DNA of 64,000 nt from a virus (taxonomy: Duplodnaviria > Heunggongvirae > Uroviricota > Caudoviricetes), in the IMG/VR virus record IMGVR_UViG_3300031521_000016, positions 35,895 to 99,894 of that record; one strand, given 5' to 3'. How positions within the stretch are numbered: position 1 is the first letter of the stretch; each line of letters begins with the position of its first letter. Below, one piece after another: positions 12,904-51,176 of this stretch. The notes beneath the pieces are model-generated. The model did not search any database and was not told the DNA's origin. It saw nothing but the letters and a program-made list of their open reading frames with translations. Made by a program: the position numbers and the translations under genes.

Positions 12904-13401
12904 TTATTTTTCTAATTGTTCTTCGATATAATTTGCAATTATGATAACATCTTCATCTCGCAGCGGCCAAAATTCTTTACCATTTACTTCTACTGCAAAG
13001 TCACCATCTGTTGGATCGATATGAACATTTGTTAATGTATTTACAGGATTATGTTTTGATGCAGAATAATCATCGATGCTTTTCAATAATCGACTATATG
13101 ACGAATCATCACTTTCTCTTGTAGACGGTTCATGCTTGAAGAATGAAATGACATCTTCATTCGTGTCGACCAAATCAATAGAAAGATCACTCCAGTCAGT
13201 TACTTTTTCCCAGTTTTCTACGATGAATATTTTGGCACATATTGCTATGAACTCCATATGTGCAAGATGATCATTGTATGATTCTAAAAAGTTAAAATCT
13301 ACATGTGAATGTGAAGCTTTAATGTGCTTAGACATATCTTCTAATGAAGAAAAACACGGTCTTACTATATGGCCATGTATTAACAATCCATTTCTGTTCA
13401 T
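12904..13401 (-). CDS. hypothetical protein
   Basis: Track ORF. Confidence 0.5.
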   Translation of the reverse strand: MNRNGLLIHGHIVRPCFSSLEDMSKHIKASHSHVDFNFLESYNDHLAHMEFIAICAKIFIVENWEKVTDWSDLSIDLVDTNEDVISFFKHEPSTRESDDSSYSRLLKSIDDYSASKHNPVNTLTNVHIDPTDGDFAVEVNGKEFWPLRDEDVIIIANYIEEQLEK

Positions 13402-14084
13402 TTGTACTTAGTTAGTTTTTCGTCCAGAATTTTTACACCTTCTGTTGCAGTTTGTTGAATAAAGATTCTGTTTCTTTCTCTTACAGGTTCATTGTTCGGA
13501 TCAATAATATAGATTGGAATATCGTCGTATACCAAATCCACTAATCCAGCTGCTGGATATACTTGTAATGATGTTCCAATGACTACTACGATATCTGCTC
13601 GTTCGATAAGTTCGGCTGCTTCGTCCATATTCGGTACACTTTCACCGAACCAAACAATATGTGGTCTTAATGCTGATCCATCGGCTGCTATAGAGCTAGT
13701 TTCGATTTTGAAATCGGCTGGCCAATCTACTATCTTTTTATCACCACATGATTTCATTTTAGTTAACTCACCATGTAAATGTAATACTTTCGTAGAACCG
13801 GCTCTTTCATGTAAATCGTCCACATTTTGTGTTATGATTTGTACATCAAATTCTTTTTCAAGATCTGCCAGATATTTATGGGCAGCATTAGGTTCGACAG
13901 TAGATAATTGTGCTCTTCGTTTATTATAGAATTCTAACATTTGAGCTCGATTCTTTTGCCAGCCAGTTACAGTAGCAACATCTGAAATGTTATATTCTTC
14001 CCATAGACCGTCAGAATCTCGAAAAGTTTTTATTCCACTTTCGGCGCTTATACCAGCACCAGTAAATACGATAAGTTTTTTCAT
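13398..14084 (-). CDS. Sir2-family NAD-dependent deacylase (sirtuin)
   Basis: GAGISAESGIKTFRD, QNVDDLHERAG and HGEL match the sirtuin Rossmann/NAD-binding motifs. Confidence 0.8.
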   Translation of the reverse strand: MKKLIVFTGAGISAESGIKTFRDSDGLWEEYNISDVATVTGWQKNRAQMLEFYNKRRAQLSTVEPNAAHKYLADLEKEFDVQIITQNVDDLHERAGSTKVLHLHGELTKMKSCGDKKIVDWPADFKIETSSIAADGSALRPHIVWFGESVPNMDEAAELIERADIVVVIGTSLQVYPAAGLVDLVYDDIPIYIIDPNNEPVRERNRIFIQQTATEGVKILDEKLTKYK

Positions 14085-14103
14085 TTGTTTTTATTTATGA
14101 TAC

Positions 14104-14113
14104 AAAAATAACA
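14104..14113 (-). promoter_or_regulatory. TGTTATTTTT variant
   Basis: 20 nt upstream of the Sir2 start; TATTTTTG also fits a TAnnTTTG-type -7 box. Confidence 0.3.
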
Positions 14114-14119
14114 CAATTT

Positions 14120-14407
14120 TCATTTAGTGGGAAACGCTAGTTCTTTCTTATGTCTCATATCTTTCTTAGGCTCATACCCAATATAAATAAAATTACCTGA
14201 ATAGAACTGTCTATTCTCATATATTACGTATGAGAACTTATGTTCTCCATGGCATATGAGATTGAATTCAGTATCAGTAACTCTATCTCTATTGAAAGAT
14301 GACATACTACAATTACGCATAGAATCTGGATATACTGATGTTATCTCATATTTCCCATCGAATGTAAAAATATGTCCATGCAAATCTTCTACTTTAGATT
14401 TGAACAT
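14120..14407 (-). CDS. hypothetical protein
   Basis: Track ORF. Confidence 0.45.
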   Translation of the reverse strand: MFKSKVEDLHGHIFTFDGKYEITSVYPDSMRNCSMSSFNRDRVTDTEFNLICHGEHKFSYVIYENRQFYSGNFIYIGYEPKKDMRHKKELAFPTK

Positions 14408-14886
14408 TATGCTAATCTGAATTTTCGCGTAAAGTTACGCAGAAATAAGATTTTTTCCAATTCTTCTTCAGAATCTACATTGAACTGTTTTACCCATTCT
14501 TTATAGGGTTCATCTTCAGTGATATAGTCTGTTTCGACAAAATCAGGATAAGCTTCTTTATCCCATACTCTTTCATCTGCTAACCACACGATACCGGTCA
14601 TTTGATTACCCAAGTCAGGCTCATGGAATACAGCATGTTTTATATTTGCAGCTTCTAAAGCATACGCATGCATATTCATAGTTCCCTTAGAAGCAATAGA
14701 ATCATTAGTAGTACCACCATTTAAGATAATAAATGTTTTATCTACATATGCCCATTTGATGCAATCATCCTGTGGCAAAAAAATGTTCATGTATTCTACA
14801 ACAGCATGTCCAAATTGTATTCCTTTTTGTATTCCACTCAATTGATAAGGTACTAGCCCCATCATTCTATATGTGTATTTTTTCAT
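14407..14886 (-). CDS. hypothetical protein (weak PTH2-like peptidyl-tRNA hydrolase resemblance)
   Basis: GIQKGIQFGHAVV...TFIILNG...GNQMTGIVW is loosely similar to the PTH2 core; weak support. Confidence 0.4.
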   Translation of the reverse strand: MKKYTYRMMGLVPYQLSGIQKGIQFGHAVVEYMNIFLPQDDCIKWAYVDKTFIILNGGTTNDSIASKGTMNMHAYALEAANIKHAVFHEPDLGNQMTGIVWLADERVWDKEAYPDFVETDYITEDEPYKEWVKQFNVDSEEELEKILFLRNFTRKFRLA

Positions 14887-15266
14887 AAAAATATTGTTGT
14901 TTGTATTAATTCATTTAAGTCATGTTTATCTTCTATGACATCTACTTTTTTAGTTTGCTCAAGAACATCGACAACTTCTTGTTCACTGATTACTTCATGA
15001 TACTCACCACTAAACGGTATAGATTCATCTAAAACATATTCATATTCATTTTTTAGATGTTTGAATAATGGTACTCTTTTATGTGTAGTTTCACAGTATG
15101 GACATTCATCATCTATTAATGAGATAATGAGAGAGTCTTTTTTGTAGTAAATCTTCATTTGAACATTACGAATATCGGCTAATAATTCCTTTTCGTGTAA
15201 TTCAAATCCTATACATGTCAATAATAAGCTAGTAACTTTATCGTCAAGATTAAGATTCAGGATCAT
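14883..15266 (-). CDS. hypothetical protein
   Basis: Track ORF. Confidence 0.45.
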   Translation of the reverse strand: MILNLNLDDKVTSLLLTCIGFELHEKELLADIRNVQMKIYYKKDSLIISLIDDECPYCETTHKRVPLFKHLKNEYEYVLDESIPFSGEYHEVISEQEVVDVLEQTKKVDVIEDKHDLNELIQTTIFL

Positions 15267-15795
15267 ATTCGATAAAGGGCTCTGAGTTTGTTATTATCTG
15301 TTTGTATCTATTAAATTCGCACATGGTCAAGTGTATGTTTTCACCACCTCCATAGTTCATACTGTGAACATAGTGTGCTGGAATATCGAGATCATGTTTT
15401 ACACAAAAATCTCTTAACCATTCTGCACATGCTTTACCAGTCTTTTCGACAAATTCTCCATCTGGATCTGCTCCATAATGTTCAAAACTTAAATCGTGGT
15501 CAAAAGAAATCAGCCAAAGAAACTTTTTCTGTTCGAAGAGTTCTGTTATCTTTTGTACAAATTCTGTATACGATCTTACTATTACCCAGTCTGTTTCAGA
15601 ATAGATAACTTTATTCATCGGCATATGCGGCATGTGATAATACATACACTCTCTAGGATGCCGCATATCGTCCAGAAACAATTTATATACTAAGATATCT
15701 CTTTCCATAATAGTTGTAAAGTTTCTTTTTCTGATTCCCAAACTTCTCGAGGTAATCCTGCTCTTGTTCCCTTTTCGAATATTACGCCTGGACAT
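15250..15795 (-). CDS. hypothetical protein
   Basis: Track ORF. Confidence 0.45.
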   Translation of the reverse strand: MSRRNIRKGNKSRITSRSLGIRKRNFTTIMERDILVYKLFLDDMRHPRECMYYHMPHMPMNKVIYSETDWVIVRSYTEFVQKITELFEQKKFLWLISFDHDLSFEHYGADPDGEFVEKTGKACAEWLRDFCVKHDLDIPAHYVHSMNYGGGENIHLTMCEFNRYKQIITNSEPFIEYDPES

Positions 15796-15849
15796 ATTTC
15801 ATACGTCTCTTCGATGTATTCTAGTTCTACCCAATCGGTACGTGGTACT

Positions 15850-16338: not shown

Positions 16339-16342
16339 TCCT

Positions 16343-16588
16343 TTAGAATATTTTTATTAAAGATTTACGAGCTGATTCTATCATGACAATAGCATCATAC
16401 AGATCTTTGTCAGGATTCATCTCGTAAATTTTATTTGAATTGATAACTAGTTCCTCGCAGAACTTATTCAGTTGTTTCTTTAGCAGAGCACGATCTTCTG
16501 CCGATAATTTTTCTTTTTCTTCTGTTATAGAAACTGATTTCTTACTCCAGTTTGCACTCCACGTAATGTTGTTAGGGGTCTGTCTCAT
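16343..16588 (-). CDS. hypothetical protein
   Basis: Track ORF. Confidence 0.4.
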   Translation of the reverse strand: MRQTPNNITWSANWSKKSVSITEEKEKLSAEDRALLKKQLNKFCEELVINSNKIYEMNPDKDLYDAIVMIESARKSLIKIF

Positions 16589-22006: not shown

Positions 22007-23263
22007 TTAGTTGCTAATTTCTATAATATAGCGGATAGTAGCTTGCGATATATCGTAAATGATGTATTCATTGTTTCGTAAGTCTGCTCCACCCTCAGCG
22101 AATACAGAATCGAAACCATCAGCTGCAAGATTCTTTTTATTTAGCCCGTAATTAGAACGTGTTACATGTTTCTGATTTCCTACGTGAAAGTCAAATAATG
22201 CCAAGAAAGCAGTAGCAGCAGAACCTCTCGCCCAGTATGAACCGGATAATGATGTATAGCCGATAGACTTTTGTGCTTTATCAGCTCCATAGATACCGTC
22301 TCCGAACATAGAACCAGAATATACTGCTCCAGATGGTCTAATCAAAAGCCCTGTCTGTAAAATGTTAAGCCAGTTTTCATTTCTAGAACCATGCCAGAAT
22401 GTTTGTATCTTTTTATTTTTAGCTGAATCTACTTGTTTAATGAAGCGTTCTTCTGTTTGTATATTTTTTACACCGAATGCTCTAACGAATTGTTTAGCAT
22501 TTGGCCCCATAAGCGATTTGATTTTTTGAACTTCTGCATCTGTAATTTCTACCATTTCAAGACCAAGCATCTTTAATGTATCAACTTTTTCATCTGCATC
22601 ATCTTCTTCTCCACCATTTTCTGCAAGTTTTTGTTTCTTCAACATTTCAACTTGTCCTGCCATAGTATCTAAAAGTTTTTGTTCTTTGTCCATCATGTCG
22701 AACAGAGTTTTGTTTTTTGTATCTTTTAGATCGAAGTCTTTGGGTAAAAGATGATAACTTACATGCTTCATCTTTCTAGGTATAATCGAATACAGCTCTA
22801 AGAATAAGTTGTTGATATCATTAACCGTAAGAGTGGATAATCCGGCAGATATCGTATTAATGATGCCTTGTGCTGCATCAACTTGTTGTTGTGTAACGTC
22901 AGATTGAGAAATCGTGTAGTTTTCTTCTACCGTCTTTTTAGCAAAAGCTTGTAGTCTGTCGAAGAATAACTTAATCTTAGCATTAGCAATCTGAGTAATC
23001 GTTTTCTTCTTGCCGGTTTTAACATCAGTAGCAGTGGCTCCAATAGATTCGATGAATAGTGTGGTTACATCTTTATAACCTTTTTTCGTTTTCGCTCGAT
23101 ATGTCTTTTCCCATTCTCTAATCGGATAAGTTTTTTCAGCTGGTTTACCTCCTTGTACTCTACCATATACGACTGTGAATGTTCCATTTTCATTATCAGT
23201 CATATGATAAAATTTGTTGTTATTTTCACTGGTCACCATGACCAATTTTACTACTTTCCCCAT
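22007..23263 (-). CDS. PARP-like ADP-ribosyltransferase with N-terminal WGR domain
   Basis: WGR-like N-terminus (NNKFYHM...VVYGRVQGG...KGYKDV). Catalytic domain FWHGSRNENWLNILQTGL...GDGIYGADKAQKSIGY...NNEYIIYDISQATIRYIIE aligns with the PARP1 H-G-S / Y-Y / E triad. Confidence 0.8.
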   Translation of the reverse strand: MGKVVKLVMVTSENNNKFYHMTDNENGTFTVVYGRVQGGKPAEKTYPIREWEKTYRAKTKKGYKDVTTLFIESIGATATDVKTGKKKTITQIANAKIKLFFDRLQAFAKKTVEENYTISQSDVTQQQVDAAQGIINTISAGLSTLTVNDINNLFLELYSIIPRKMKHVSYHLLPKDFDLKDTKNKTLFDMMDKEQKLLDTMAGQVEMLKKQKLAENGGEEDDADEKVDTLKMLGLEMVEITDAEVQKIKSLMGPNAKQFVRAFGVKNIQTEERFIKQVDSAKNKKIQTFWHGSRNENWLNILQTGLLIRPSGAVYSGSMFGDGIYGADKAQKSIGYTSLSGSYWARGSAATAFLALFDFHVGNQKHVTRSNYGLNKKNLAADGFDSVFAEGGADLRNNEYIIYDISQATIRYIIEISN

Positions 23264-26668: not shown

Positions 26669-27056
26669 CTTCTTTTATAAAAGTTGCGTTGTCTTGTAGT
26701 TCAGGATATTTTCTCCACTCTTCCGGTACGTCTCCTTGACGCCATAAGTTGTTCGTATATCTAAAAGAACCATCTTTCATCTTTATGTAGAATTTTCTAC
26801 CACCGTGACCTGCAAAACGAGTTACTCCTGAAAGTTCACCACTGCCATGATATCTAGTGCCATCCACGATATAAGTATGTTCGTCGAATAATTGAATTTT
26901 TTCAATCCAAAATGCACAATTGAAGCAACATTTTTTGTCGTTCATGATATCTGATAGATTGCCTGGATGCATACCCTCAGTGCTGATCCAGACTCTATTA
27001 TGCGGATCGTGTGATTCTTCTCTATTGCATATTGAGCATCTTAGTTCAGTGTCCAT
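26631..27056 (-). CDS. hypothetical Cys/His-rich protein (possible zinc-binding)
   Basis: CSICNREESHDPH near the N-terminus and a later CCFNC motif. Confidence 0.45.
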   Translation of the reverse strand: MDTELRCSICNREESHDPHNRVWISTEGMHPGNLSDIMNDKKCCFNCAFWIEKIQLFDEHTYIVDGTRYHGSGELSGVTRFAGHGGRKFYIKMKDGSFRYTNNLWRQGDVPEEWRKYPELQDNATFIKEDEYERGIAESKA

Positions 27057-27499
27057 TAATCTTGCGATAAAAGTTCTTCTAATACGATCAATCTTTGTCT
27101 TTCTTTTTCTTCAGGAGATAATAAAGTTCCCAACTCAGCTTCAATAAGCTCTAGTTGCTTTTTCTTTTTTGAAACACCGATTACGTCTATGCGCAATTGC
27201 AAGTCTGTCTTCCATTGATCGATAGGATAGCCTTGCCATACATAGTCACTTTTCTTTACATTCAATTCACCGGCCGCTTTTTCGAAATAATCAGCTCTCA
27301 TTAATAAGAATGCCCACATTTCTACAATTTGTGCTACTTGTTGAATAGTGTGTAGATTAACTCTGGTACTAGAAAGTTCAGGATTAAAACTGAATGAGCA
27401 GTTGGTCAACCATGTAGGTTTTTCGATTTTCTTAATCTCTGCTCTTTTCTTTTCTGCTAACTTAAGCAGATCGTGAATTTTTTGATCGTTATTTGCCAT
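27056..27499 (-). CDS. hypothetical protein, paralog A of a duplicated about 150-aa family
   Basis: Shares WQGYPIDQW ... LSPEEK ... LLSQD with 29554-30006 (FLGYSIKDW ... LSPDDK ... LLSDD). Confidence 0.5.
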   Translation of the reverse strand: MANNDQKIHDLLKLAEKKRAEIKKIEKPTWLTNCSFSFNPELSSTRVNLHTIQQVAQIVEMWAFLLMRADYFEKAAGELNVKKSDYVWQGYPIDQWKTDLQLRIDVIGVSKKKKQLELIEAELGTLLSPEEKERQRLIVLEELLSQD

Positions 27500-27500
27500 T

Positions 27501-28646
27501 TTAATTGATGTGTATAGTTGTTTTTGAATTATTTTTTAGTTTGAGTGCTATTCTGACAAATGGTAATGTCGGTAAATCTGTTCTGTCATACAGTGTGATC
27601 ACTTTCTTAGAAAGTTCTTTTATGATTATTTCACCGAATAGATCAAATTCTATTGTACTTACTTTGGTAAGTGTGAACGTTTTAAATGTATAGTTGCGCT
27701 CTCCATAACTATAATATCCATTCGCGTGGTTTTCATTTTTTATTTTATGAGCAGTAAACTTGAAAACATCGAATGTATTACCAAACGGACCATCAGTTTT
27801 TATATACACTTTATCCGGTAGTACATAATCTTGGTCATCCGCTATTGGTTTACGATATGTTGATTTAAAGCTTAATTTGACATCTTCTGTCCAGAACTTA
27901 TTTACAACTCCGAAACATGGTTGAAGTAATAATTTTTCTATCAGATCTGAAAGATTAGATACAGGTGTAGAACTTATTTCTGATGCTATAGATGTTAAAT
28001 CAGATTTAGCTTCATAATTTTGACGTTTAACGTTATATACTACGTGTTTCTTAGAAGGTGTACAGTCAGATGATGAGCTCCAAGTCCGATAATCATAATG
28101 CATAAATTTGCCGAGATAGATTACAGGCTCTTGTTTTTTGTTTTCATATTCTCCACCAATAATCATTTCAGATGATTTTACTTTCTTGGCTTGAATAGAA
28201 GTAAATTCTTTCGATTTCTTATATTCTAAACTACAAGTAGGAATCAAAACGAGATCAGATTTATCCCATGCATATACGAAATCACCATCAAGTCCTTTTC
28301 CTTGGAATGAAGTTGTTTCCGATAAGATGAAAAGAAGGTTTGCAATAGTTATTTCAAACTCAAATCCTCTTGGATCGTAAATTCTAATCTTTTCATTACG
28401 GGCATTCCAACCCCAACGTTCTCTTGCTCCACCTACACCTTTATTTAGAACGAATCCAGATAATGGTGAATTATCGAAATCATCTACACCTAGTTTAGAC
28501 TGAATCCAATCTTTCCAAGATGTTTCTTTGCGTAGTTTGCCTTTCTGATCAATATACACTACATAAGCTAATTTGCCAGTGTAAGTATCCGATCTTTCAT
28601 TATACCCAACTTTTATTGTCTGCGGTATGTATAATTGTTCATTCAT
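27501..28646 (-). CDS. hypothetical protein (381 aa)
   Basis: Track ORF. Confidence 0.5.
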   Translation of the reverse strand: MNEQLYIPQTIKVGYNERSDTYTGKLAYVVYIDQKGKLRKETSWKDWIQSKLGVDDFDNSPLSGFVLNKGVGGARERWGWNARNEKIRIYDPRGFEFEITIANLLFILSETTSFQGKGLDGDFVYAWDKSDLVLIPTCSLEYKKSKEFTSIQAKKVKSSEMIIGGEYENKKQEPVIYLGKFMHYDYRTWSSSSDCTPSKKHVVYNVKRQNYEAKSDLTSIASEISSTPVSNLSDLIEKLLLQPCFGVVNKFWTEDVKLSFKSTYRKPIADDQDYVLPDKVYIKTDGPFGNTFDVFKFTAHKIKNENHANGYYSYGERNYTFKTFTLTKVSTIEFDLFGEIIIKELSKKVITLYDRTDLPTLPFVRIALKLKNNSKTTIHIN

Positions 28647-35031: not shown

Positions 35032-35917
35032 TGTATATCATTTCTGCATTACTATATGCTGCGGTAATATCAGCTTTCATTTCAGAAATAATAGATTCTA
35101 CTTTATATACATGAATATCATCTTCTAAATCAAGTGACATAGCAAGAATAAATTTGTTATTGCCATTGTATTCAGATCGCATGTTATTTATATGCTTAAC
35201 ATCTGGATACGATTTAATGATCTGTTTTATATGCATTCTCATTTCCCTTGATATGCTTTCACCAATCATTAATTTTCTAAATTCGTTACTCAAAAAATAT
35301 GAGGATGATAATAAAAGTAATCCAACAGTGATCGATCCAATTGCATCAAATACGGGAGATATGCATATAGCTAATGTAGTAGAAAGTAGTACAATAACTA
35401 ATCCTGTAAGGGCAGCAAAATCTTCAATTATGATAACGAATATATTAGCATCAGTTGAATTTTTAAGATGATTTAGCCAACTAACTTTTCTATGCTTATC
35501 CATTTTGAATCGTTTGAATGCAACATAGAATGAATTTGCCTCAATGATGATCGATATAATTAGAACGATAAAAATCCACATCATATTTGAAAGGCCCTCT
35601 GGTTCTATTATCTTATGAATGCCTTCATATACTGAATATAAACCACCAACAAAGAATAGTAAAACTCCTACTAACAGTCCATAAAAATATTCCTCTTTGC
35701 CATAACCAAATGCATGTTGTTCATCAGGTTCTTTTTTAGAACGTTTAGAGCCCACGATTAAAAGAATTTGGTTTGCAGTGTCAGCAAAAGAGTGAATAGA
35801 TTCAGCGAACATTCCAGCACTTCCAGTAATGAATGATACTATCAACTTAATTGCACTTATTATGAGATTTCCTACTCCTGCTACAATTACTGCCTTTAAA
35901 CTTCCTTCTGTACTCAT
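35009..35917 (-). CDS. cation diffusion facilitator (CDF) family metal efflux transporter
   Basis: Six predicted TM helices, the CDF signature SIHSFADTANQ in TM2, and a C-terminal cytoplasmic domain. Confidence 0.75.
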   Translation of the reverse strand: MSTEGSLKAVIVAGVGNLIISAIKLIVSFITGSAGMFAESIHSFADTANQILLIVGSKRSKKEPDEQHAFGYGKEEYFYGLLVGVLLFFVGGLYSVYEGIHKIIEPEGLSNMMWIFIVLIISIIIEANSFYVAFKRFKMDKHRKVSWLNHLKNSTDANIFVIIIEDFAALTGLVIVLLSTTLAICISPVFDAIGSITVGLLLLSSSYFLSNEFRKLMIGESISREMRMHIKQIIKSYPDVKHINNMRSEYNGNNKFILAMSLDLEDDIHVYKVESIISEMKADITAAYSNAEMIYIETSHSH

Positions 35918-36420
35918 TCAGCCTCCATTATTCGTTCAAGATATTCCCATGCTTTTAATACGTCGATCGGATGTTCTGTGCATTGAATAGCATTTCTGAA
36001 TTCTGCATATTCATTTTTGTACATTAAGAACTTATCTTTGTTGTATTCTTTACTTTGAATAGTATTTGCAATTCTATCACATATTTTGACAGCTGTTGCT
36101 TTCCAGTTTCCACGAATTTTAGGATAAGTCTTGGCATGTTTTTCTGTCCGGTTTCTTCCTAATTCATCAGTTACACAGAATACTATTTCTGCGATATTTT
36201 TACCGAATGCTTTCTTAATATCATTGAACGATAAATGAGTATCTTCCAATACATCATGTAAAATACATCCAATAACAATTTCTTCATCAAATCCCAAAAT
36301 CTCAGCGATTTCAGCTACACGCTTTACATGATATGCATATGGGTAGATATCGTAAGTCTGGCCTTTATGAACCAACTCAGCTACCATCAAAGCTCTATCC
36401 TTTTTTGTTATCGTTATCAT
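35914..36420 (-). CDS. HD-domain small alarmone hydrolase (SpoT/Mesh1-like (p)ppGpp hydrolase)
   Basis: H...HDVLEDT...FG..IAEIVFCVTDE matches the RelA/SpoT HD hydrolase motifs; 168 aa, single domain. Confidence 0.7.
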   Translation of the reverse strand: MITITKKDRALMVAELVHKGQTYDIYPYAYHVKRVAEIAEILGFDEEIVIGCILHDVLEDTHLSFNDIKKAFGKNIAEIVFCVTDELGRNRTEKHAKTYPKIRGNWKATAVKICDRIANTIQSKEYNKDKFLMYKNEYAEFRNAIQCTEHPIDVLKAWEYLERIMEAE

Positions 36421-40489: not shown

Positions 40490-40927
40490 TTACACTAATT
40501 TTGAAAAATCTTTTAGCTCATTTCTAACTTTCATCAGGATTTTACCAAGCATATTTTTACCTACACCTTCGCATACTCCCCAATATTTATCTCCCCACCA
40601 ATTACCTTCAATAAGCATTGCATCACCGGTAGCAATTAATTTCTTTGTAAGTTCGGCACTTTGTGAAAATTTAGCCATTACGACTTCTTCCATAATGCTA
40701 TCTTTAACTAAATCCCAATCGGAACGTAGATTTACAGATCTGCCAAGTTTTTTACTCTCGCTTGGATTAAGCGATACGAATGATTCTCTAGCAACTGAAT
40801 CATTCGTTTTCATAGAATGAAATGCGCCTTCTGAGTTGGCATACGTTCTTCCGTCATAAGTAACTGGTGATTCCCAGAAGTTACTGAGGAATGCGTATTC
40901 CCCTTTGAAAAAGTCAATAGTTTTCAT
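40490..40927 (-). CDS. NADAR (YbiA-like) ADP-ribosyl hydrolase domain protein
   Basis: FLSNFW, E at SEGAFHSMK, MEEVVMAKFSQ...LTKKLIATGDAMLIEGNWWGDKYWG and NMLGKILMKVR match the NADAR signature. Confidence 0.75.
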   Translation of the reverse strand: MKTIDFFKGEYAFLSNFWESPVTYDGRTYANSEGAFHSMKTNDSVARESFVSLNPSESKKLGRSVNLRSDWDLVKDSIMEEVVMAKFSQSAELTKKLIATGDAMLIEGNWWGDKYWGVCEGVGKNMLGKILMKVRNELKDFSKLV

Positions 40928-42385: not shown

Positions 42386-42394
42386 AATGAATTA

Positions 42395-43588
42395 TTATCT
42401 TGATGCACTAGGCCTGGGAATCCTTCCCTTTTCTACTTCAGGTCTATTACTTATTCTACTTTTTTTGACATGCCTAATTTGATCATTACAATTTTTCCAT
42501 CTCATGGATATGAGTAAATTGTTGATATAGTCACGATCTGGAGATTCTTGCATGTCGGATTTGTCAAATGCTTCATTTACTTGTTTCATCAAGTCTTCAG
42601 CTTCATTAACTAAATCTTCATATTCATATTCTCCTTTTCTGATAGCTAACAATTTATCTCTATTTGTGCGTCTTACATTTATTCCTTTGCCTTGCGCAAT
42701 CTCTAATGACATTTCAAGCAAACGTAAAGTATGTGCTAAATTTTTACCGTCATATCCTTTTCCGTGCAACATGTTATCATTGAAACGGTGAACATTCCTT
42801 TTGGCAACCCATTCCCAGTATTCTTTATATTCTTTGCAGTATACAGAATAACCTTCCATGTTAAATTGCATTAAGAAATCTGGTTTTATACCACTTGGAA
42901 TATTACTAAGACTTACATCCATCGCAGTTTCTTCGTCTGAAACAATACCTCTATAGTAATCAGATATGAGAATGCCTTGTTCTCTAGCAAGAAATTGATT
43001 ACGATTATAGTATACACCGTATGTGTTTTTCATATGAGGTAGTGCAACTAATCCACAACAATCTTGTACCATGTCGTTCATTCGTAAGTACTCTTTAACG
43101 TTAATAGAGCCTTGCTTCCATTGAACGAAACAGAATTCTAAAATGCTTTTGCGTTTTTCATCGAACTGTTTAACAATCTTTTTGTTCAATCCTCTAGCTT
43201 TCTTTATTTGTTGAGTAGCATACCCACCAAATGAATTTTTACAGAGCTTAGAGATAAATTTATCTCTATTTTCGAGGATCATATCGAATATTGGTGCTTT
43301 ATAAATTACACAATCTTCAGGTGTATTCAAAAGCTCTATGATATTAGGATTGTTAGTGTATATTAATTCCAAAAATTTTCCTAATTCGTAGAATGTGATA
43401 TCGTTCATTTCATCAGATACTTGATCGTCATATTCTAATCCAAGAATTTTATCGATAGGTTGCATGAATACACCACGTATGTCTGTATCAGAAGTTTCTG
43501 TTGCAGTACCATATGCGTGTGAACCAGCGATAACTTCATAAATTATCAGTCCATTATCTCGTAAATCTTGTAAAGTTAATTTCTTCAT
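42395..43588 (-). CDS. Pol-beta-superfamily nucleotidyltransferase (RlaP/PF10127-like; CD-NTase/OAS-like not excluded)
   Basis: GSHAYGTATETSDTDIRGV is the G[S]-x9-DxD nucleotidyltransferase motif followed by RGV, as in RNA-repair-associated predicted nucleotidyltransferases; 397 aa. Confidence 0.6.
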   Translation of the reverse strand: MKKLTLQDLRDNGLIIYEVIAGSHAYGTATETSDTDIRGVFMQPIDKILGLEYDDQVSDEMNDITFYELGKFLELIYTNNPNIIELLNTPEDCVIYKAPIFDMILENRDKFISKLCKNSFGGYATQQIKKARGLNKKIVKQFDEKRKSILEFCFVQWKQGSINVKEYLRMNDMVQDCCGLVALPHMKNTYGVYYNRNQFLAREQGILISDYYRGIVSDEETAMDVSLSNIPSGIKPDFLMQFNMEGYSVYCKEYKEYWEWVAKRNVHRFNDNMLHGKGYDGKNLAHTLRLLEMSLEIAQGKGINVRRTNRDKLLAIRKGEYEYEDLVNEAEDLMKQVNEAFDKSDMQESPDRDYINNLLISMRWKNCNDQIRHVKKSRISNRPEVEKGRIPRPSASR

Positions 43589-48101: not shown

Positions 48102-49828
48102 CTTATTATTTTTATACGTTTTTGAAATTCTGGTGGAAAATTATTTCTGCTATTTCTGAATAAATCAGAGAGGCATCCGTCTAAGAAGTACGTTATTGCC
48201 CAATCATCTTTTGATCGTATACTTCTACCTACTCCTTGAAGTATTGCATTACATGTTTTCCAGTTGTACCATTCTGGCATATATTTAAGCTTTGCACTTA
48301 CAAACTTATCTCCTAATGATGGATATGGTACTTTTAAGAAAATTTGGAATCGTGATTTCTCATTCATTAAGTCTAAGCCTTCTAATATTGAAGGCCCCAT
48401 TAATACAGCATTCGGTATGTCATTGAATCGTTTTAATGCGTCATCCTTTTCTTTTGAATTACTATAGAGAATAATTCTCTGTTGTTCTTGAAAGTCTAAT
48501 GCATTAAATAATTTTGACGATATTTCATATGAACCACTATGAATTATACCACTGTCGGTTTCATGAGATCGTAGAAGTTCTTTGACTTTATCCTTCATCC
48601 AATCAAAGTTAGCTTCACGTTTAGCCATACTCATACGTTTGTCGGGATAGAAAAAGATAGGAGAATTATTGAAATCAAACTTCGATTCCATTCTCATGTA
48701 TTTAACTTTACTTGCTCCTATAGTCTTCATGAAATCTTTAGGATCGCCCATAGTAGCAGTCATTAAAAGCTTGAACTTAGCTTGTTCATGAAAGTGTCTA
48801 TTCATCATGTAAGATTCTTCTAGACAATTAAAAACTGCTCCTCCTTCTTGAGGATTCTTAACAATAAAATCTACCCCAACCTGAGAGATAATGTGATTAT
48901 AGTCTTCAAATTTACAGTGTGAATCTGATATGAAATCCGCTTGGGCAAAGGCAGCTCGCCAATCTCTTGGTATAGCTTTAGTAGATGGAAATCTAGAAGC
49001 AGCTTCTTTTTTCATAGGTTCTGCTGCTCTTGCATAATCACGTAAAAACAGTTCTATGTCTTTTAGTACAATAAATAGCTTTCCATTATCTTCCTCTTCT
49101 AATAAAGCTTGAATTATACGTTTTACTCTTGATGGCTGCCTAGAAGGTGCTGGAAATCCAGTCTTCTTTAGAAAAGCATAAAAATCTTCAGCTTTCTGTA
49201 CAAAATCTACGTTAATTTTTGGACTAAAGTGATTTTGTACAATCTCAGAAACTTTATGTGCTTCATCACATATCGTAAAATCTCTTATTGGGAAAGGTAC
49301 ACTTTTATTCTGTTCTTGCATTTTACCATCTACATAATTACGTTGCAATATCCAATACGGATATGTCATTAACGTTGTATATGATTTTATTGCCTTTTTT
49401 CTATTTACTAAATATCCGCATTCGTTAAAACATGGTAGTTCCTCAGCATCCTCATAAGATACACCCTGTAATTTACAGTCACCTAATGAAAATTTTTCGC
49501 CATTTACTGCACAAGTATAATTATCTATACCCTTGATATAGCCAAATCTATCAATTCGTTCAATATCTTTTAAGTATTGATCGAATAGTGATAGATCTGA
49601 TGCTAGAATATAACCTTTCATGTTATACTCATTTAATAAACTAGAAAAGAGAATTGCTATTACTGACTTACCAGAACCTGTAGGTGCATCTAATAAGTAA
49701 AGATTTTTTTCTCCTTTGAAAAAAGTATCTAGTATGTCTACTAGAACTTCAAATTGTCCATCTCGAAATTCAAAATTATCGCCGAGAAGTTTCTTTGCAT
49801 GTCGTATTATAGTATTATGGTCTATCAT
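48098..49828 (-). CDS. SF2 DEAH-box helicase
   Basis: Walker A DAPTGSGKS, DEAH box ICDEAHKV, and motif VI QGVGRSIR. Confidence 0.75.
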   Translation of the reverse strand: MIDHNTIIRHAKKLLGDNFEFRDGQFEVLVDILDTFFKGEKNLYLLDAPTGSGKSVIAILFSSLLNEYNMKGYILASDLSLFDQYLKDIERIDRFGYIKGIDNYTCAVNGEKFSLGDCKLQGVSYEDAEELPCFNECGYLVNRKKAIKSYTTLMTYPYWILQRNYVDGKMQEQNKSVPFPIRDFTICDEAHKVSEIVQNHFSPKINVDFVQKAEDFYAFLKKTGFPAPSRQPSRVKRIIQALLEEEDNGKLFIVLKDIELFLRDYARAAEPMKKEAASRFPSTKAIPRDWRAAFAQADFISDSHCKFEDYNHIISQVGVDFIVKNPQEGGAVFNCLEESYMMNRHFHEQAKFKLLMTATMGDPKDFMKTIGASKVKYMRMESKFDFNNSPIFFYPDKRMSMAKREANFDWMKDKVKELLRSHETDSGIIHSGSYEISSKLFNALDFQEQQRIILYSNSKEKDDALKRFNDIPNAVLMGPSILEGLDLMNEKSRFQIFLKVPYPSLGDKFVSAKLKYMPEWYNWKTCNAILQGVGRSIRSKDDWAITYFLDGCLSDLFRNSRNNFPPEFQKRIKIIR

Positions 49829-49861
49829 ATTAATTATATGAAGACCTATACAAAGTTCTAA

Positions 49862-50137
49862 TTATTTTTTGTCCCAATCTTCATCCCACTCTTCTTCATC
49901 AGCTTCTTCTCCAGGTGCAAGTAATGAGTTGATAAATGCAGCTGAACAGCTTTTATGTGTAGGATATGAGTTAAATTCTGGGTAAAAATGATGTACATCG
50001 TGAGGAGTGCCCATTGATATGCTTTTTCCACAATGTTCACAAGTTTTTGTACTTCTCCCTGACTTTACGGGACGATTTTCGTAATAATTTTCAGCTTCAA
50101 GATATTCATGCTTGACTCTTCCTTCTGTATTTTCCAT
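49862..50137 (-). CDS. small zinc-binding protein
   Basis: CEHCGK...HKSC; acidic C-terminus. Confidence 0.4.
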   Translation of the reverse strand: MENTEGRVKHEYLEAENYYENRPVKSGRSTKTCEHCGKSISMGTPHDVHHFYPEFNSYPTHKSCSAAFINSLLAPGEEADEEEWDEDWDKK

Positions 50138-50634
50138 TAGAATCCAAATTTAGTTGATATTTTTCGTTTACGTAAAAGCTTTAGTTCATTCTCATCAGAT
50201 AGTGTGCTCAATAAAGATTCACGTGTTATAGGATATACAAGTTTTCTTATATTCTTAACTATTAATGATTTCTGTAAAGCTAAAGCTAAATTCTCATATT
50301 TTGTGGGCAGCGCCGGTAATTGTATAGTTTCCCAGTTGCCAGATTTAGCAGTAATGTTCTTGGTTTCAATATCTATTTCTAACCCATAATCTTCATTTGA
50401 TGATAAAATCGATATAGCACATGTATTATCTACATTGCCGTAAAAAATCATTTTATCAAAAGTTTGTAGAATATCTATTGCACACGCAGTCAGACGTGAA
50501 ATGAATATATCGTCACAATCAATGAAACTTTCATCCCATAATACACTATGTGCAATATTATGGGATGAAGGCGTTTTGTTCACATCTCTGTAAATGACAA
50601 TACGTTGCATGTTTTTAGAGAATCCTAGAACCAT
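50137..50634 (-). CDS. hypothetical protein with C-terminal KFGF tail
   Basis: Ends ...RKRKISTKFGF; immediately downstream of the Nudix gene. Confidence 0.5.
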   Translation of the reverse strand: MVLGFSKNMQRIVIYRDVNKTPSSHNIAHSVLWDESFIDCDDIFISRLTACAIDILQTFDKMIFYGNVDNTCAISILSSNEDYGLEIDIETKNITAKSGNWETIQLPALPTKYENLALALQKSLIVKNIRKLVYPITRESLLSTLSDENELKLLRKRKISTKFGF

Positions 50635-51176
50635 GAAGGAAACAAGATCTGTAAAATTTGTTTAACTTTGTATCTGAATGGATGTTTCACCTTTTCATTG
50701 TAGATATTGTTTATGCGAGAATAATGATTGAATGCCCAATCGTAATTATGCAGACATTTGACATTTATCCATCTTAAATCTTCAACTTCATTTTCTTCAG
50801 AGCCAAGGCGGTTCAGATGAGGCAAAGGTTGAGTATAATCAAACTTTAAGACTAAGTAGTATCTAAATGTGATATTCTGCTCATTGTATGCATCTTCATT
50901 CCAAGAATCGAATTTGAGCATTTCTGGATCGATTCTGATCCCGGTTTCTTCGAATAATTCTCTTACACAACCCTGGCGAGAAGTTTCATCGTAATCTAAA
51001 TAGCCACAAGGTGCATTCCAATAGCCTTGAAAATTCGGTGTTCCGCTTCCACGTTTATTTGCTAAAATGTAAGTTTCACCATCTTTTTTTGCAAAAATGA
51101 AACCTGTTACAGCAGTGGCTCTGCTAATCCAATAAGTTTTACCTTCATGTTCAACTGGAAAATTTTTTCTACTCAT
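50625..51176 (-). CDS. Nudix hydrolase
   Basis: Nudix box GYLDYDETSRQGCVRELFEETGI (Gx5Ex7REuxEExGu). Confidence 0.75.
   Translation of the reverse strand: MSRKNFPVEHEGKTYWISRATAVTGFIFAKKDGETYILANKRGSGTPNFQGYWNAPCGYLDYDETSRQGCVRELFEETGIRIDPEMLKFDSWNEDAYNEQNITFRYYLVLKFDYTQPLPHLNRLGSEENEVEDLRWINVKCLHNYDWAFNHYSRINNIYNEKVKHPFRYKVKQILQILFPSWF

What the first reader, a model, noticed from the sequence alone, without database searches (positions are those of the whole stretch)
13398..51176. Dispersed phage-encoded NAD+/ADP-ribose toolkit: PARP-like writer, NADAR eraser, sirtuin, Nudix and an orphan RES-antitoxin domain
One phage region carries five NAD+/ADP-ribose-related genes. These are a catalytically intact WGR-PARP (22007-23263), a NADAR ADP-ribosyl hydrolase (40490-40927), a Sir2 sirtuin (13398-14084), a Nudix hydrolase (50625-51176) and an orphan ParS/MbcA-like antitoxin domain (3786-3986). 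T4-type phages normally ADP-ribosylate host RNA polymerase and ribosomal proteins with Alt/ModA/ModB-type toxins-like ARTs, and no such gene was recognised here. A PARP-family writer together with NADAR, Nudix and Sir2 would be a different ADP-ribosylation and counter-defence strategy. Possible targets are host or phage proteins or nucleic acids. The eraser and antitoxin genes could counter NAD+-depleting or ADP-ribosylating defences such as DarTG, RES-Xre and Thoeris- or Sir2-based systems. As far as I know, this combination in a single phage has not been described.
Basis: partly seen in the sequence, partly recalled or inferred. Interest (0 to 1): 0.85.

Follow-up and report, generated by a model that had tools for sequence, protein, structure and literature searches.

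The report
Scattered NAD/ADP-ribose genes in a phage
A large uncultured phage of Bacteroidota really does carry intact PARP, NADAR, sirtuin, Nudix and orphan RES-antitoxin genes, but they are five separately placed accessory genes of already catalogued kinds, not one system; the freshest piece is the captured antitoxin fragment.

Summary
All five ORFs exist at the stated coordinates and their family assignments hold: WGR-HD-PARP with an intact H-Y-E triad, YbiA-type NADAR, CobB-like Sir2, Nudix with a complete box, and a 66-aa Xre/MbcA/ParS C-terminal domain. The "toolkit" reading is not supported. The genes lie 8-20 kb apart. Cultured PARP phages of about 145 kb lack the others. In 80 viral PARP loci, NADAR is within 10 kb in 2, and Sir2, this Nudix type and ParS_C in none. 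PARP's recurrent neighbours are instead p159, an HD protein, RlaP and, in one lineage, RNA and DNA ligases. The window keeps part of that order. NADAR is known to erase guanine ADP-ribose; activity on PARP-type protein marks is not reported in the papers read. No PARG, macro or ARH gene was found. Phage PARPs, NADAR, Sir2 and Nudix networks were surveyed in 2021-2022, and phage NADAR counter-defence is experimentally shown. The newest element is the orphan antitoxin fragment. It is 59-62% identical to the closest antitoxins in Bacteroidota genomes. Thirty-four of 34 loci checked there carry a RES toxin directly downstream. An exact 21-nt duplication flanks the phage gene, and the window has no RES gene. 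Verdict: new members of known kinds, moderate interest.

The parts
22007..23263 (-). WGR - helical regulatory - ART (PARP) protein, 418 aa, with H291/Y325/E399
   Evidence: Pfam PARP 5.8e-22. Aligns with the PARP1 helical and catalytic domains with H-Y-E kept. The triad is invariant in 36 homologues. AF2 model pLDDT 82.9 with best Foldseek hit PARP1 WGR-HD-CAT 4DQY_C.
40490..40927 (-). YbiA-family NADAR ADP-ribosyl glycohydrolase, 145 aa
   Evidence: Pfam NADAR 1e-27. TIGR02464 scores 83.1 bits, above its cutoff. E. coli YbiA 2B3W 1.7e-20 with E33, E107 and D113 conserved.
13398..14084 (-). CobB-like class III sirtuin, 228 aa, without the zinc-binding cysteines
   Evidence: Pfam SIR2 6.8e-45. 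E. coli CobB 1S5P 4.4e-51 with the catalytic His and YxxR kept. No PADLOC defence-Sir2 hit.
50625..51176 (-). Nudix hydrolase, 183 aa, complete Nudix box, substrate class unresolved
   Evidence: Pfam NUDIX 4.5e-15. Best named matches are MutT and the NadM Nudix domain, all far below their cutoffs. Only 17 phage records carry a relative, mostly Lak megaphages of Prevotella.
3786..3986 (-). Orphan Xre/MbcA/ParS C-terminal toxin-binding domain, 66 aa, with no HTH and no toxin
   Evidence: Pfam 6.4e-11 and NCBIfam Xre_ParS_antitoxin positions 52-112 of 112. PDB 8GUG_B and ParS 6D0H_B align to their very C-termini. 70% identical to the C-terminus of a 176-aa HTH+ParS_C antitoxin. 34 of 34 Bacteroidota loci checked carry a RES toxin directly downstream of the antitoxin.
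3966..3986 (-). First copy of the exact 21-nt direct repeat ATGATAGATCAAGAACAAATA, which forms the start of the ParS_C gene
   Evidence: Sequence read directly. Two exact copies 203 bp apart.
3763..3783 (-). Second copy of the 21-nt repeat, which forms the start of the next gene, 3436-3783
   Evidence: Both genes begin with MIDQEQI. Homology to cellular antitoxins begins at residue 6.
14407..14886 (-). p159, a conserved uncharacterised 'hydrolase' (phrog_3668) and the commonest neighbour of PARP in other viral contigs
   Evidence: Homologue in 44 of 80 viral PARP loci, typically 0.2-0.5 kb downstream on the same strand. Invariant motifs GIQ..H, LNGGTTN, EPDL and DERV. PHROG hit 3.4e-16.
27056..28646 (-). 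p381 and p147, unknown proteins that lie directly upstream of PARP in about 10 related loci
   Evidence: phrog_2475 and phrog_2574, both of unknown function.
35914..36420 (-). HD-domain phosphohydrolase, a recurrent upstream neighbour of PARP in relatives
   Evidence: Pfam HD_4 3e-09. Homologue in 26 of 80 PARP loci, 4-6 kb upstream.
42395..43588 (-). RlaP (PF10127) Pol-beta-family nucleotidyltransferase, with an RNaseH_like PF04308 gene next to it at 41927-42385
   Evidence: Pfam RlaP 5.6e-22 and RNaseH_like 2.5e-22. Homologue in 30 of 80 PARP loci. Family described in PMC12776372.
15250..16338 (-). cREC (15250-15795) and NT5C/HAD nucleotidase (15850-16338), 1.2-1.8 kb from Sir2
   Evidence: Pfam cREC_REC 4.1e-14 and NT5C 3.5e-12. 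This is the same type of neighbourhood that PMC9503650 section 3.7.3 predicts for viral sirtuins.

Best explanation
The window is the accessory early-gene region, plus the edge of the T4-like morphogenesis module, of an uncultured myovirus of at least 140 kb that most likely infects Bacteroidota. The five NAD+/ADP-ribose genes are intact members of known families. They were acquired and are kept independently, and each probably works on its own front of the NAD+/ADP-ribose conflict.

(i) PARP is one of a large family of roughly 420-aa WGR-HD-ART proteins of uncultured phages. By analogy with PARP1-3 and the bacterial HaPARP and CdPARP, its WGR domain binds a nucleic-acid break or end, the helical domain releases autoinhibition, and the H-Y-E site transfers ADP-ribose from NAD+. 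The target is unknown. It sits in a conserved gene order, HD .. p381 p147 .. PARP .. p159, which relatives share and which in one lineage also holds RNA ligases, a DNA ligase and RlaP.

(ii) The YbiA-type NADAR removes ADP-ribose from guanine in DNA, as the phage AdfN proteins do against DarT1-type toxins.

(iii) The CobB-like Sir2 is a deacylase or ADP-ribosyl transferase, possibly working with the adjacent cREC and HAD genes on RNA ends.

(iv) The Nudix cleaves an NDP-X compound that cannot be named from sequence.

(v) The 66-aa protein is the toxin-plugging C-terminal domain of a Bacteroidota Xre-RES antitoxin. It was captured behind a 21-nt duplicated gene start. It most likely binds and blocks host RES NAD+-degrading toxins that would otherwise be freed when host gene expression is shut off.

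Shown here: the ORFs, families, motifs, architecture, repeat, phyletic and neighbourhood patterns. Inferred: all activities, targets and the anti-defence roles.
For: Families and catalytic residues.

Independence of the five genes:
- They are 8-20 kb apart.
- Their nearest relatives lie in different phages.
- Cellulophaga and Klebsiella PARP phages carry PARP only. Extra hits appear only in five PARP-bearing genomes of 309-462 kb. Those hits must be NADAR, because ParS_C and this Nudix have no match there.
- In 80 IMG/VR PARP loci, NADAR is present in 2, and Sir2, Nudix and ParS_C in 0.

PARP backbone: p159 in 44 of 80 loci, RlaP in 30, HD in 26, and p381/p147 in about 10, in the same order as in the window.

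Host and origin of the orphan domain:
- 76 of 76 genome loci with the closest full-length antitoxin are Bacteroidota.
- 34 of 34 checked have an overlapping RES gene.
- The best genomic identity is 62%, to a Paludibacter MAG.
- The 21-nt repeat is exact, and the window has no RES gene.
- In MbcTA and RES-Xre, the antitoxin C-terminus blocks the toxin cleft, and deleting the last 10 residues abolishes neutralisation (PMC6436930).

Literature: NADAR activity and AdfN from PMC11543638, PMC11125620 and PMC11825919. Prior surveys are PMC7824862 and PMC9503650.
Against: - Independence is argued from absence of linkage, which does not exclude cooperation in trans.
- The five PARP phages that also carry NADAR, and four contigs with PARP and NADAR within 10 kb (L040, L056, L198, L235), leave room for a loose link.
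- A different Nudix subfamily recurs about 8 kb from PARP in 17 of 80 loci.
- Only 64 kb of the genome was seen, plus about 16 kb of flanks.
- RES-Xre has not been shown to be an anti-phage system in any paper found.
- The Sir2-cREC proximity is not conserved near the closest Sir2 homologues in three huge phages.
Confidence: 0.6

Rival explanations
1. PARP is a break- or end-sensing component of a phage system that heals and seals broken nucleic acids, and is not a host-takeover enzyme. Its WGR domain recognises broken RNA or DNA made by host nucleases. The enzyme then ADP-ribosylates phosphorylated ends or repair proteins. It would work alongside RNA ligases, kinase/phosphoesterases, HD, RlaP and p159. 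Sir2 (next to cREC and HAD) and NADAR (1 kb from the RNaseH-like and RlaP genes) would belong to the same RNA-repair arsenal.
For: - Unbiased clustering of ORFs in 80 viral PARP loci gave these co-directional neighbours: an Rnl2-type RNA ligase in 41 loci about 1 kb upstream, an ATP DNA ligase in 44, a T4 Rnl1-type ligase in 32, kinase/2H-like proteins in 38, HD in 24, RlaP in 22-30 and p159 in 44.
- 43 of 80 loci have an RNA ligase within 10 kb.
- In other PARP clades, an AAA_33 kinase, HAD_PNKP and Metallophos genes sit beside PARP.
- The window also holds Thg1, a CCA-adding enzyme, cREC and RlaP.
- PARPs ADP-ribosylate phosphorylated DNA and RNA ends in vitro (introduction of PMC11543638; PMC9458441 abstract).
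- Sirtuin-centred RNA repair is predicted in PMC9503650.
Against: - The ligase-containing loci fall into only 3 PARP clusters at 60% identity or more, and 9 at 70% or more, so much of the pattern is synteny by descent.
- 18 of 80 loci have none of these genes.
- The window and its flanks have no RNA or DNA ligase homologue, and in the window the block is stretched over 29 kb.
- p159 also occurs in T4-like Aeromonas phages that lack PARP.
- No biochemical data exist for any phage PARP.
Confidence: 0.2
2. One reading: the five genes form one ADP-ribosylation and counter-defence strategy. PARP is the writer, NADAR and Nudix (and perhaps Sir2) are erasers or processors of its marks, and the antitoxin domain gives added protection.
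For: - All five genes are intact and sit in one phage.
- PARP and NADAR occur together in 5 of 16 PARP-bearing phage records.
- They lie within 10 kb in L040, L056, L198 and L235.
- An H-Y-E-clade ART paired with a YbiA-type NADAR antitoxin exists in myxobacteria as YarT-YbiA (PMC11125620).
- PMC9503650 reports that Macro, NADAR, SLOG and Nudix co-occur more than chance in DNA viruses.
Against: - The window shows no operon or adjacency.
- NADAR is near PARP in only 2 of 80 viral loci, and Sir2, this Nudix and ParS_C in 0.
- The 137-147 kb PARP phages lack the others, so co-occurrence tracks genome size.
- The NADAR activity shown in the papers read is on guanine ADP-ribose, not on protein or poly-ADP-ribose.
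- The erasers that accompany bacterial PARPs are PARGs (PMC8120803), and none is present.
- The Nudix cannot be assigned to ADP-ribose.
Confidence: 0.1
3. Most of these genes are housekeeping or metabolic passengers with no role in ADP-ribosylation conflicts. The NADAR would act as an N-glycosidase on riboflavin intermediates, the Sir2 as a CobB-like protein deacylase that retunes host metabolism, and the Nudix as a MutT-like nucleotide sanitiser.
For: - The NADAR passes the NCBIfam model for 'riboflavin biosynthesis intermediates N-glycosidase' (83.1 bits against a cutoff of 73.7).
- The Sir2 is closest to the CobB and SIRT5 deacylases and keeps YxxR.
- The best Nudix matches are MutT proteins.
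- Sir2 and NADAR are common in phages, with 1,022 and 767 of 50,697 records.
Against: - All NADAR subfamilies tested, including YbiA and phage types, hydrolyse guanine ADP-ribose, and phage NADARs counter DarTG1.
- The Nudix scores for MutT are far below the cutoffs (32.9 against 148).
- This model does not explain the PARP or the orphan antitoxin.
Confidence: 0.1

Closest known systems
Bacterial and phage PARPs (Herpetosiphon HaPARP, Clostridioides CdPARP; annotated PARPs of Xanthomonas phage XacN1, Cellulophaga phages phi4:1 and phi17:2, Klebsiella phages 05F01 and FBKp34)
   Same: WGR + helical regulatory + ART architecture with H-Y-E (PMC8120803). 24-28% identical over the full length to the annotated phage PARPs, and 43.6% to the uncultured huge phage LR756500.1.
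   Different: No PARG partner gene was found, whereas HaPARP and CdPARP have one. The WGR tryptophan is a tyrosine (YGR, read from the sequence and consensus). No phage member has been tested biochemically. This lineage sits in its own conserved gene order with p159, HD and RlaP.
Phage orphan NADAR antitoxins (AdfN; T4 gp30.3) and E. coli YbiA
   Same: A stand-alone NADAR with no partner toxin, and the catalytic residues conserved. The concept and activity are established in PMC11825919, PMC11543638 and PMC11125620.
   Different: It belongs to the YbiA subfamily, with Glu in the last strand, not the His-type gp30.3 or the Asp-type DarG1-like group. YbiA and T4 gp30.3 did not rescue cells from DarT1 in the assay of PMC11125620, so the in vivo specificity of this protein is open.
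RES-Xre / MbcTA / ParST antitoxins and other phage orphan antitoxins (T4 Dmd; the MbcA homologue gp52 of mycobacteriophage Ibhubesi)
   Same: It has the C-terminal toxin-binding domain through to the last residue (..IEHGIFA), which is the part that plugs the toxin cleft. The idea of a phage carrying an MbcA homologue as anti-defence was raised in PMC6436930.
   Different: It is only the 59-residue C-terminal domain fused to 7 residues duplicated from the neighbouring gene. It has no HTH and no toxin. It derives from the Bacteroidota type. It has no tblastn match in 50,697 phage records. The insertion footprint is visible.
Viral sirtuin clade and CobB (class III sirtuins)
   Same: Rossmann core, catalytic His, GAGxS and YxxR; 4.4e-51 to E. 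coli CobB. cREC and HAD genes lie nearby, as in the neighbourhoods described in PMC9503650.
   Different: The zinc-binding cysteines are lost; the whole protein has one Cys. No 2H enzyme, RNA ligase or PIN gene is beside it. The cREC proximity is not conserved in three huge-phage relatives.
The NAD+-ADPr networks of large phages as surveyed by Iyer, Burroughs, Anantharaman and Aravind (2021, 2022)
   Same: Several NAD+/ADP-ribose domains (ART/PARP, NADAR, Nudix, Sir2, cREC) in one large contractile-tailed phage, with frequency rising with genome size.
   Different: Those surveys treat phage PARPs as host-protein modifiers. The passages and sections read here do not report the PARP-p159-HD-RlaP-ligase neighbourhood or an HTH-less RES-antitoxin fragment.

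Membership tests
PARP (PARP1-3-like ARTD clade) | ART fold with the H-Y-E catalytic triad | tested here: met
   H291, Y325 and E399 align with PARP1 H862, Y896 and E988 and are invariant in 36 homologues. Pfam PARP 78.6 bits against a cutoff of 26.7.
PARP (PARP1-3-like ARTD clade) | Helical regulatory domain preceding the ART domain | tested here: met
   phmmer aligns residues 81-260 with the PARP1 helical domain. The model has helices at 95-216, and the Foldseek hits cover HD plus CAT.
PARP (PARP1-3-like ARTD clade) | N-terminal WGR nucleic-acid-binding domain | tested here: met
   Pfam WGR is only 17.9 bits, below the cutoff of 22. However, PF05406 is recorded for many homologues at 46-50% identity, and the model's best match is the WGR-containing PARP1 chain 4DQY_C (TM 0.66). 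The motif reads YGR, not WGR.
PARP (PARP1-3-like ARTD clade) | Poly- or mono-ADP-ribosyl transferase activity stimulated by nucleic acid | not testable with these tools
   Needs purified protein. Shown only for the bacterial HaPARP and CdPARP (PMC8120803).
NADAR, YbiA subfamily | NADAR domain above the curated threshold, with Glu in the last strand | tested here: met
   Pfam 97.8 bits against 35.1. E107 in LIEG aligns with YbiA E125, and E33 with the SE motif (residue roles from PMC11543638).
NADAR, YbiA subfamily | Hydrolysis of guanine ADP-ribose and protection from DarT1-type toxins | not testable with these tools
   Activity has been shown for all tested subfamilies in vitro, but in vivo rescue is specific to particular pairs (PMC11125620).
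Sirtuin class III (CobB/SIRT5-like) | Sir2 core with the catalytic His, the GAGxS NAD motif and the YxxR acyl-recognition motif | tested here: met
   Alignment to CobB 1S5P at 4.4e-51. It shows TGAGISAESGI, FYNKRR and HLHGEL.
Sirtuin class III (CobB/SIRT5-like) | Cys4 zinc-binding module | tested here: not met
   The protein has one cysteine. The positions of CobB's cysteines align with S, S, A and A.
Nudix hydrolase | Nudix box GX5EX7REUXEEXGU | tested here: met
   G58..E64..R72 E73 L74. E76 E77. G79 I80, read. Pfam 56.3 bits against 21.1.
ADP-ribose / NAD-specific Nudix (NudE, NadM-Nudix, NudC types) | Specific sequence relationship to a characterised ADP-ribose or NAD pyrophosphatase | tested here: inconclusive
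   There are weak hits to the NadM-type Nudix (31 bits against cutoffs of 350 or more; PDB 2QJT 9.5e-07), but equally weak hits to MutT.
Xre-RES / MbcTA / ParST type II antitoxin | C-terminal toxin-binding domain (PF09722), complete to the C-terminus | tested here: met
   Pfam 42.5 bits against 24.5. The alignments to 8GUG_B and ParS 6D0H_B end at the last residue.
Xre-RES / MbcTA / ParST type II antitoxin | N-terminal Xre-like HTH domain | tested here: not met
   The protein is 66 aa. The closest full-length relative P0122 has PF20432 plus PF09722, and homology starts only at residue 6 of the phage protein.
Xre-RES / MbcTA / ParST type II antitoxin | Adjacent cognate RES or ParT toxin gene | tested here: not met
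   The downstream gene 3436-3783 has no Pfam hit. A RES HMM and tblastn found nothing in the window.
A single NAD+/ADP-ribose 'toolkit' system | Conserved linkage or co-occurrence of the components across independent phages | tested here: not met
   PARP occurs alone in the 137-147 kb phages. NADAR is within 10 kb in 2 of 80 loci, and the others in 0 of 80.
T4-type phage | T4-like morphogenesis core genes | tested here: met
   Portal_T4 (gp20) 3.5e-62 and T4-gp15_tss 5.5e-10.
T4-type phage | Presence or absence of Alt/ModA/ModB ARTs | tested here: inconclusive
   None were found in the window's ORFs of 75 aa or more, or in about 16 kb of flanks. More than half of the genome of at least 140 kb is unseen.

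The most novel reading that the evidence does not exclude
The phage WGR-PARP is not a host-takeover enzyme. It is instead a sensor of broken nucleic acids within a conserved phage block that heals and seals ends (Rnl1, Rnl2, DNA ligase, kinase/2H, HD, RlaP, p159). On this reading it ADP-ribosylates RNA or DNA ends or repair factors to counter host ribotoxins or nucleases. This would be a PARP-dependent repair pathway in bacteriophages, parallel to eukaryotic PARP1-3 signalling. In the same phage, the HTH-less RES-antitoxin fragment would be the first direct evidence that RES-Xre modules act as abortive-infection defences.
Probability: 0.2. Interest if true: 0.75.

Novelty: new member of a known kind. 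Interest (0 to 1): 0.4.

Why it matters
If the five genes were one system, this would be a new ADP-ribosylation strategy in phages. The evidence instead points to an ordinary, already catalogued pattern: large myoviruses collect NAD+/ADP-ribose domains one at a time. Two leads remain worthwhile.

First, no phage PARP has been characterised. This family is large, with 260 IMG/VR contigs and thousands of metagenomic proteins. Its recurrent neighbours are RNA-repair enzymes, which gives a concrete and testable alternative to 'host-protein modifier'.

Second, the 66-aa antitoxin fragment has known donor-type loci (Bacteroidota Xre-RES) and a visible insertion footprint. A simple co-expression experiment could therefore test whether RES NAD+-degrading toxins are anti-phage effectors that phages need to disarm.

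Tried and rejected
- **Megablast to phages:** a search with 6 kb around PARP found nothing, so no close sequenced relative exists.
- **Single-protein scans of IMG/VR:** the scans for Sir2 and ParS_C found no relatives. The word-indexed protein search for ParS_C returned only itself, so the exhaustive representative search was used instead.
- **The 858-aa ORF at 59366-61942:** I first took it for a DNA polymerase. It has no Pfam hit and only weak matches to huge phages, so I dropped it as a marker.
- **Presence/absence polymorphism of the ParS_C insertion:** every contig that spans the site or starts inside the gene carries it, so it is fixed in this population. Distant homologues of the neighbouring gene have no ParS_C next to them, and their N-termini vary too much to show which copy of the 21-nt repeat is ancestral.
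- **Conservation of Sir2-cREC-HAD proximity:** I tested the three huge phages with the closest Sir2 and found none.
- **Identifying p159:** there was no Pfam hit even at E=10 and no PDB sequence match with a 17-sequence profile. The single-sequence model was unusable at pLDDT 36.8, so I ran no fold search on it.
- **PADLOC:** it gave no hit for Sir2, PARP, ParS_C or the RnlB-like protein.
- **PARP-p159 as an obligate pair:** I considered and rejected this. p159 occurs without PARP in T4-like Aeromonas phages, and the closest PARP relatives lack it within 10 kb.

Full report
**Observation.** One of them, 3786-3986, lies outside the finding's own start-end range. Pfam places them as stated:
- SIR2, 6.8e-45.
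- PARP catalytic domain, 5.8e-22. The WGR match is only 0.0034, below the curated cutoff.
- NADAR, 1e-27.
- NUDIX, 4.5e-15.
- Xre_MbcA_ParS_C, 6.4e-11.

PHROGs and NCBIfam agree.

**What kind of phage this is.** The window has 33% G+C, about 105 genes almost all on one strand, and no tRNA gene. It has no close sequenced relative. It carries a T4-like portal (gp20, 3.5e-62) and a gp15 homologue, so 'T4-type' holds for the morphogenesis core. Its nearest relatives are uncultured huge phages, Cellulophaga phages and Lak phages of Prevotella. An identical neighbouring protein occurs on a contig of 140,106 bases, so the window is under half of the genome. Three observations point to a Bacteroidota host:
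- Relatives carry Por_Secre_tail genes.
- The closest Nudix homologues are in Prevotella megaphages.
- The captured antitoxin fragment comes from Bacteroidota.

**PARP.**
- phmmer aligns residues 81-416 with the helical and catalytic domains of PARP1. WHGSR, GIYGAD and NNEYIIYD fall on H862, Y896 and E988.
- In an alignment of 36 homologues, H291, Y325 and E399 are invariant.
- An AlphaFold model built from that alignment (pLDDT 82.9) matches the WGR-HD-CAT chain of DNA-bound PARP1 best (4DQY_C, TM 0.66), followed by PARP2 WGR-CAT structures. The protein is therefore a minimal WGR-helical-ART PARP, like the bacterial HaPARP and CdPARP. Those two make poly-ADP-ribose in vitro, and HaPARP needs DNA for activity (PMC8120803).
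- It is not rare in nature. Thousands of metagenomic proteins match, many on contigs of 100-425 kb, and 260 IMG/VR contigs encode relatives.
- In the curated phage collection it matches 16 of 50,697 records, and several are already annotated as poly(ADP-ribose) polymerase.

**The other four genes.**
- NADAR: it is YbiA-type, with 1.7e-20 to E. coli YbiA, and it keeps the glutamates E33 and E107. Every NADAR subfamily tested so far hydrolyses guanine ADP-ribose in DNA (PMC11125620, PMC11543638). Phage NADARs (AdfN) neutralise DarTG1 (PMC11825919).
- Sir2: it is closest to CobB (4.4e-51). It keeps the catalytic His, GAGxS and YxxR motifs but has lost the zinc-binding cysteines. It does not match defence-type Sir2 models.
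- Nudix: the box is complete, but the substrate class is unresolved. MutT and NadM-type hits are equally weak. Relatives occur in only 17 phage records.
- Frequency: Sir2-like genes occur in 1,022 phage records and NADAR-like genes in 767, so neither is unusual.

**Is it one toolkit?**
- The five genes lie 8-20 kb apart among roughly 100 unrelated genes, and their closest relatives are in different phages.
- A concatenated query showed that the Cellulophaga and Klebsiella PARP phages (137-147 kb) carry PARP alone. Only five PARP-bearing genomes of 309-462 kb (XacN1, Xoo-sp13, CM1, RAS14, LR756500.1) have extra hits. Those hits must be NADAR, because ParS_C and this Nudix have no match there.
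- In 80 viral PARP loci with up to 10 kb on each side, a relative of the window's NADAR occurs in 2, and Sir2, Nudix and ParS_C in none.
- No PARG, macro or ARH gene was found among the window's ORFs. The bacterial PARPs are paired with PARGs. In the papers read here, NADAR activity is shown on guanine ADP-ribose.
- The writer-eraser toolkit is therefore not supported as a system. A loose PARP-NADAR link cannot be excluded, because they lie within 10 kb in L040, L056, L198 and L235, and YarT-YbiA is a precedent.

**What PARP is actually linked to.**
- The same 80 loci show recurrent co-directional neighbours: p159 (window 14407-14886) in 44, usually 0.2-0.5 kb downstream; RlaP in 30; an HD protein in 26; and p381 with p147 directly upstream in about 10.
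- The window keeps the order HD .. p381 p147 .. PARP .. p159, stretched by insertions.
- Clustering all ORFs of these loci without reference to the window added several neighbours, confirmed by Pfam: an Rnl2-type RNA ligase (41 loci), an ATP-dependent DNA ligase (44), a T4 Rnl1-type RNA ligase (32), kinase/2H-like proteins (38) and another Nudix subfamily (17).
- 43 of 80 loci have an RNA ligase within 10 kb.
- In other PARP clades, AAA_33 kinase, HAD_PNKP and Metallophos genes sit beside PARP.
- This suggests a link to nucleic-acid end healing and sealing, which fits a WGR break-binding domain. The caveats are serious:
  - The ligase-bearing loci fall into only 3 PARP clusters at 60% identity or more, so much of the pattern is shared descent.
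  - 18 of 80 loci have none of these genes.
  - The window and its flanks have no ligase homologue.
  - p159 occurs without PARP in T4-like Aeromonas phages.
- I keep this as the main rival explanation and the most novel reading, at about 0.2.

**Sir2 and NADAR context.** Sir2 lies 1.2-1.8 kb from a cREC gene and an NT5C/HAD gene. PMC9503650 uses this type of neighbourhood to predict sirtuin-based RNA repair. The proximity is not conserved near the closest Sir2 homologues in three huge phages. NADAR lies 1 kb from the RNaseH-like and RlaP genes. RlaP is near a NADAR in 3 of 44 viral NADAR loci. These are hints, not evidence.

**The orphan antitoxin.** This is the part that gained most from testing.
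- The 66-aa protein aligns with the C-terminal toxin-binding domain through to the last residue of 8GUG_B and ParS.
- An exhaustive search found 1,108 relatives. Most are antitoxins of 130-220 aa with the domain at the extreme C-terminus, and the best is 70% identical. That best relative has an Xre-like HTH plus the ParS_C domain.
- All 76 genome loci that encode its relatives are from Bacteroidota. In 34 of 34 examined, an overlapping gene of 151-157 aa follows, and two representatives scanned with Pfam are RES domains.
- The best genomic match to the phage protein is 62%, to a Paludibacter MAG, and homology always starts at residue 6.
- In the phage, the gene and the gene after it both begin with the exact 21-nt sequence ATGATAGATCAAGAACAAATA, 203 bp apart. 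The fragment therefore sits behind a duplicated gene start that supplies its start codon and an ATGA overlap with the preceding cupin gene.
- The window has no RES gene, and the 50,697 phage records contain no relative of the fragment.
- In MbcTA and RES-Xre, the antitoxin C-terminus plugs the NAD+ cleft of the toxin, and removing the last ten residues abolishes neutralisation. The same paper already speculated that an MbcA homologue in mycobacteriophage Ibhubesi is an anti-defence protein (PMC6436930).
- I found no paper showing that RES-Xre defends against phages, or describing an HTH-less phage fragment.
- A second orphan antitoxin-like gene, RnlB-like at 53496-53984, supports the theme.

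**Comparison with what is known.**
- Phage PARPs, NADAR, Macro, Nudix, Sir2 and cREC, and their enrichment and co-occurrence in large myoviruses, are laid out in PMC7824862 and PMC9503650. The finding is therefore a new member of known kinds.
- What appears new at the level of detail is the domain-level capture of a RES antitoxin with its footprint, and the conserved PARP neighbourhood with p159, HD, RlaP and ligases.

**Verdict.**
- The 'toolkit' is five independent accessory genes (confidence 0.6).
- Interest is moderate (0.4).

Noticed in passing
window 53496-53984 (-): A second orphan antitoxin-like gene. It matches the RnlB_antitoxin domain (PF15933, 9.7e-12, above the cutoff), and no RnlA-like toxin gene lies next to it. 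It may be a Dmd-like counter to RnlA/LsoA-type RNase toxins.
   Followed up: partly
window 6046-7452, 21584-22006, 50137-50634 (all -): Three otherwise unrelated ORFs end in a shared basic-aromatic tail (..KKRGDIKARQFGF..KKRGLIKSIQFGF..RKRKISTKFGF). That is 3 of 230 stop-to-stop ORFs, and apart from this phage's own copy in L155 the tail was absent from the eight loci scanned. It resembles the C-terminal docking peptides of clamp-binding proteins (from memory). Two of the three ORFs flank the PARP and Nudix genes.
   Followed up: partly
window 14407-14886 (-); loci L170-L234: The p159 family (phrog_3668 'hydrolase') has enzyme-like invariant motifs (GIQ..H, LNGGTTN, EPDL, DERV) but no Pfam or PDB match. 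It is the commonest PARP neighbour in viral contigs, yet it also occurs without PARP in T4-like Aeromonas phages.
   Followed up: partly
window 1819-2649, 2818-3261, 3983-4357 (-); flank L155 6808-12621: A split HldE/RfaE-like pair (heptose-7-P kinase domain I and adenylyltransferase domain II) plus a cupin. Just beyond the window start lie a thymidylate-synthase-like gene, a GT2 glycosyltransferase, a UDP-GlcNAc 2-epimerase and a dNMP kinase. Together these suggest a sugar-based DNA hypermodification pathway.
   Followed up: no
window 20104-20940, 37131-37895, 15250-15795, 41927-43588 (-): A rich set of tRNA and RNA repair-type genes: Thg1-like, CCA-adding/PolyA_pol, cREC, RNaseH_like PF04308 and RlaP. 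The window has no RNA ligase gene and no tRNA gene.
   Followed up: partly
window 7715-11827 (-): A DUF2201 metallopeptidase/VWA protein with a long acidic low-complexity insert, a MoxR-like AAA ATPase and a ClpP protease, in a row.
   Followed up: no
window 13398-14084 (-): The sirtuin has only one cysteine. The zinc ribbon of CobB-type sirtuins is degenerate although the catalytic motifs are intact.
   Followed up: partly
window 59366-61942 (-): An 858-aa protein with a highly acidic, Glu/Pro-rich C-terminal half lies between the gp15-like gene and the TnsA-like-endonuclease (PF08722) gene. It has no Pfam hit and only weak similarity to Lak megaphages and LR756500.1.
   Followed up: no
L032 3001-4329; L044 1542-2425; L040 51-3405: In viral NADAR loci, one has a Thg1 homologue immediately after NADAR, one has tandem NADAR genes, and one has a 446-aa PARP-domain protein 1.6 kb upstream of NADAR.
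   Followed up: partly
window 4918-5547, 16585-17784, 31061-32923, 35009-35917, 45898-46278 (-): Unusual cargo for a phage: a signal-peptide-bearing (read from the sequence, not tested) DNA/RNA non-specific endonuclease, an OmpA-family protein, a 620-aa SPFH/Band-7 membrane protein, a cation-diffusion-facilitator transporter and a hemerythrin-domain protein.
   Followed up: no
flank L154 2818-3894: Just beyond the window end lies a 358-aa protein with a nucleoside 2-deoxyribosyltransferase-like domain (PF15891), next to DnaB-like and Mre11/Rad50-like genes. From memory, that superfamily is also treated as part of NAD+/nucleotide conflict systems.
   Followed up: no
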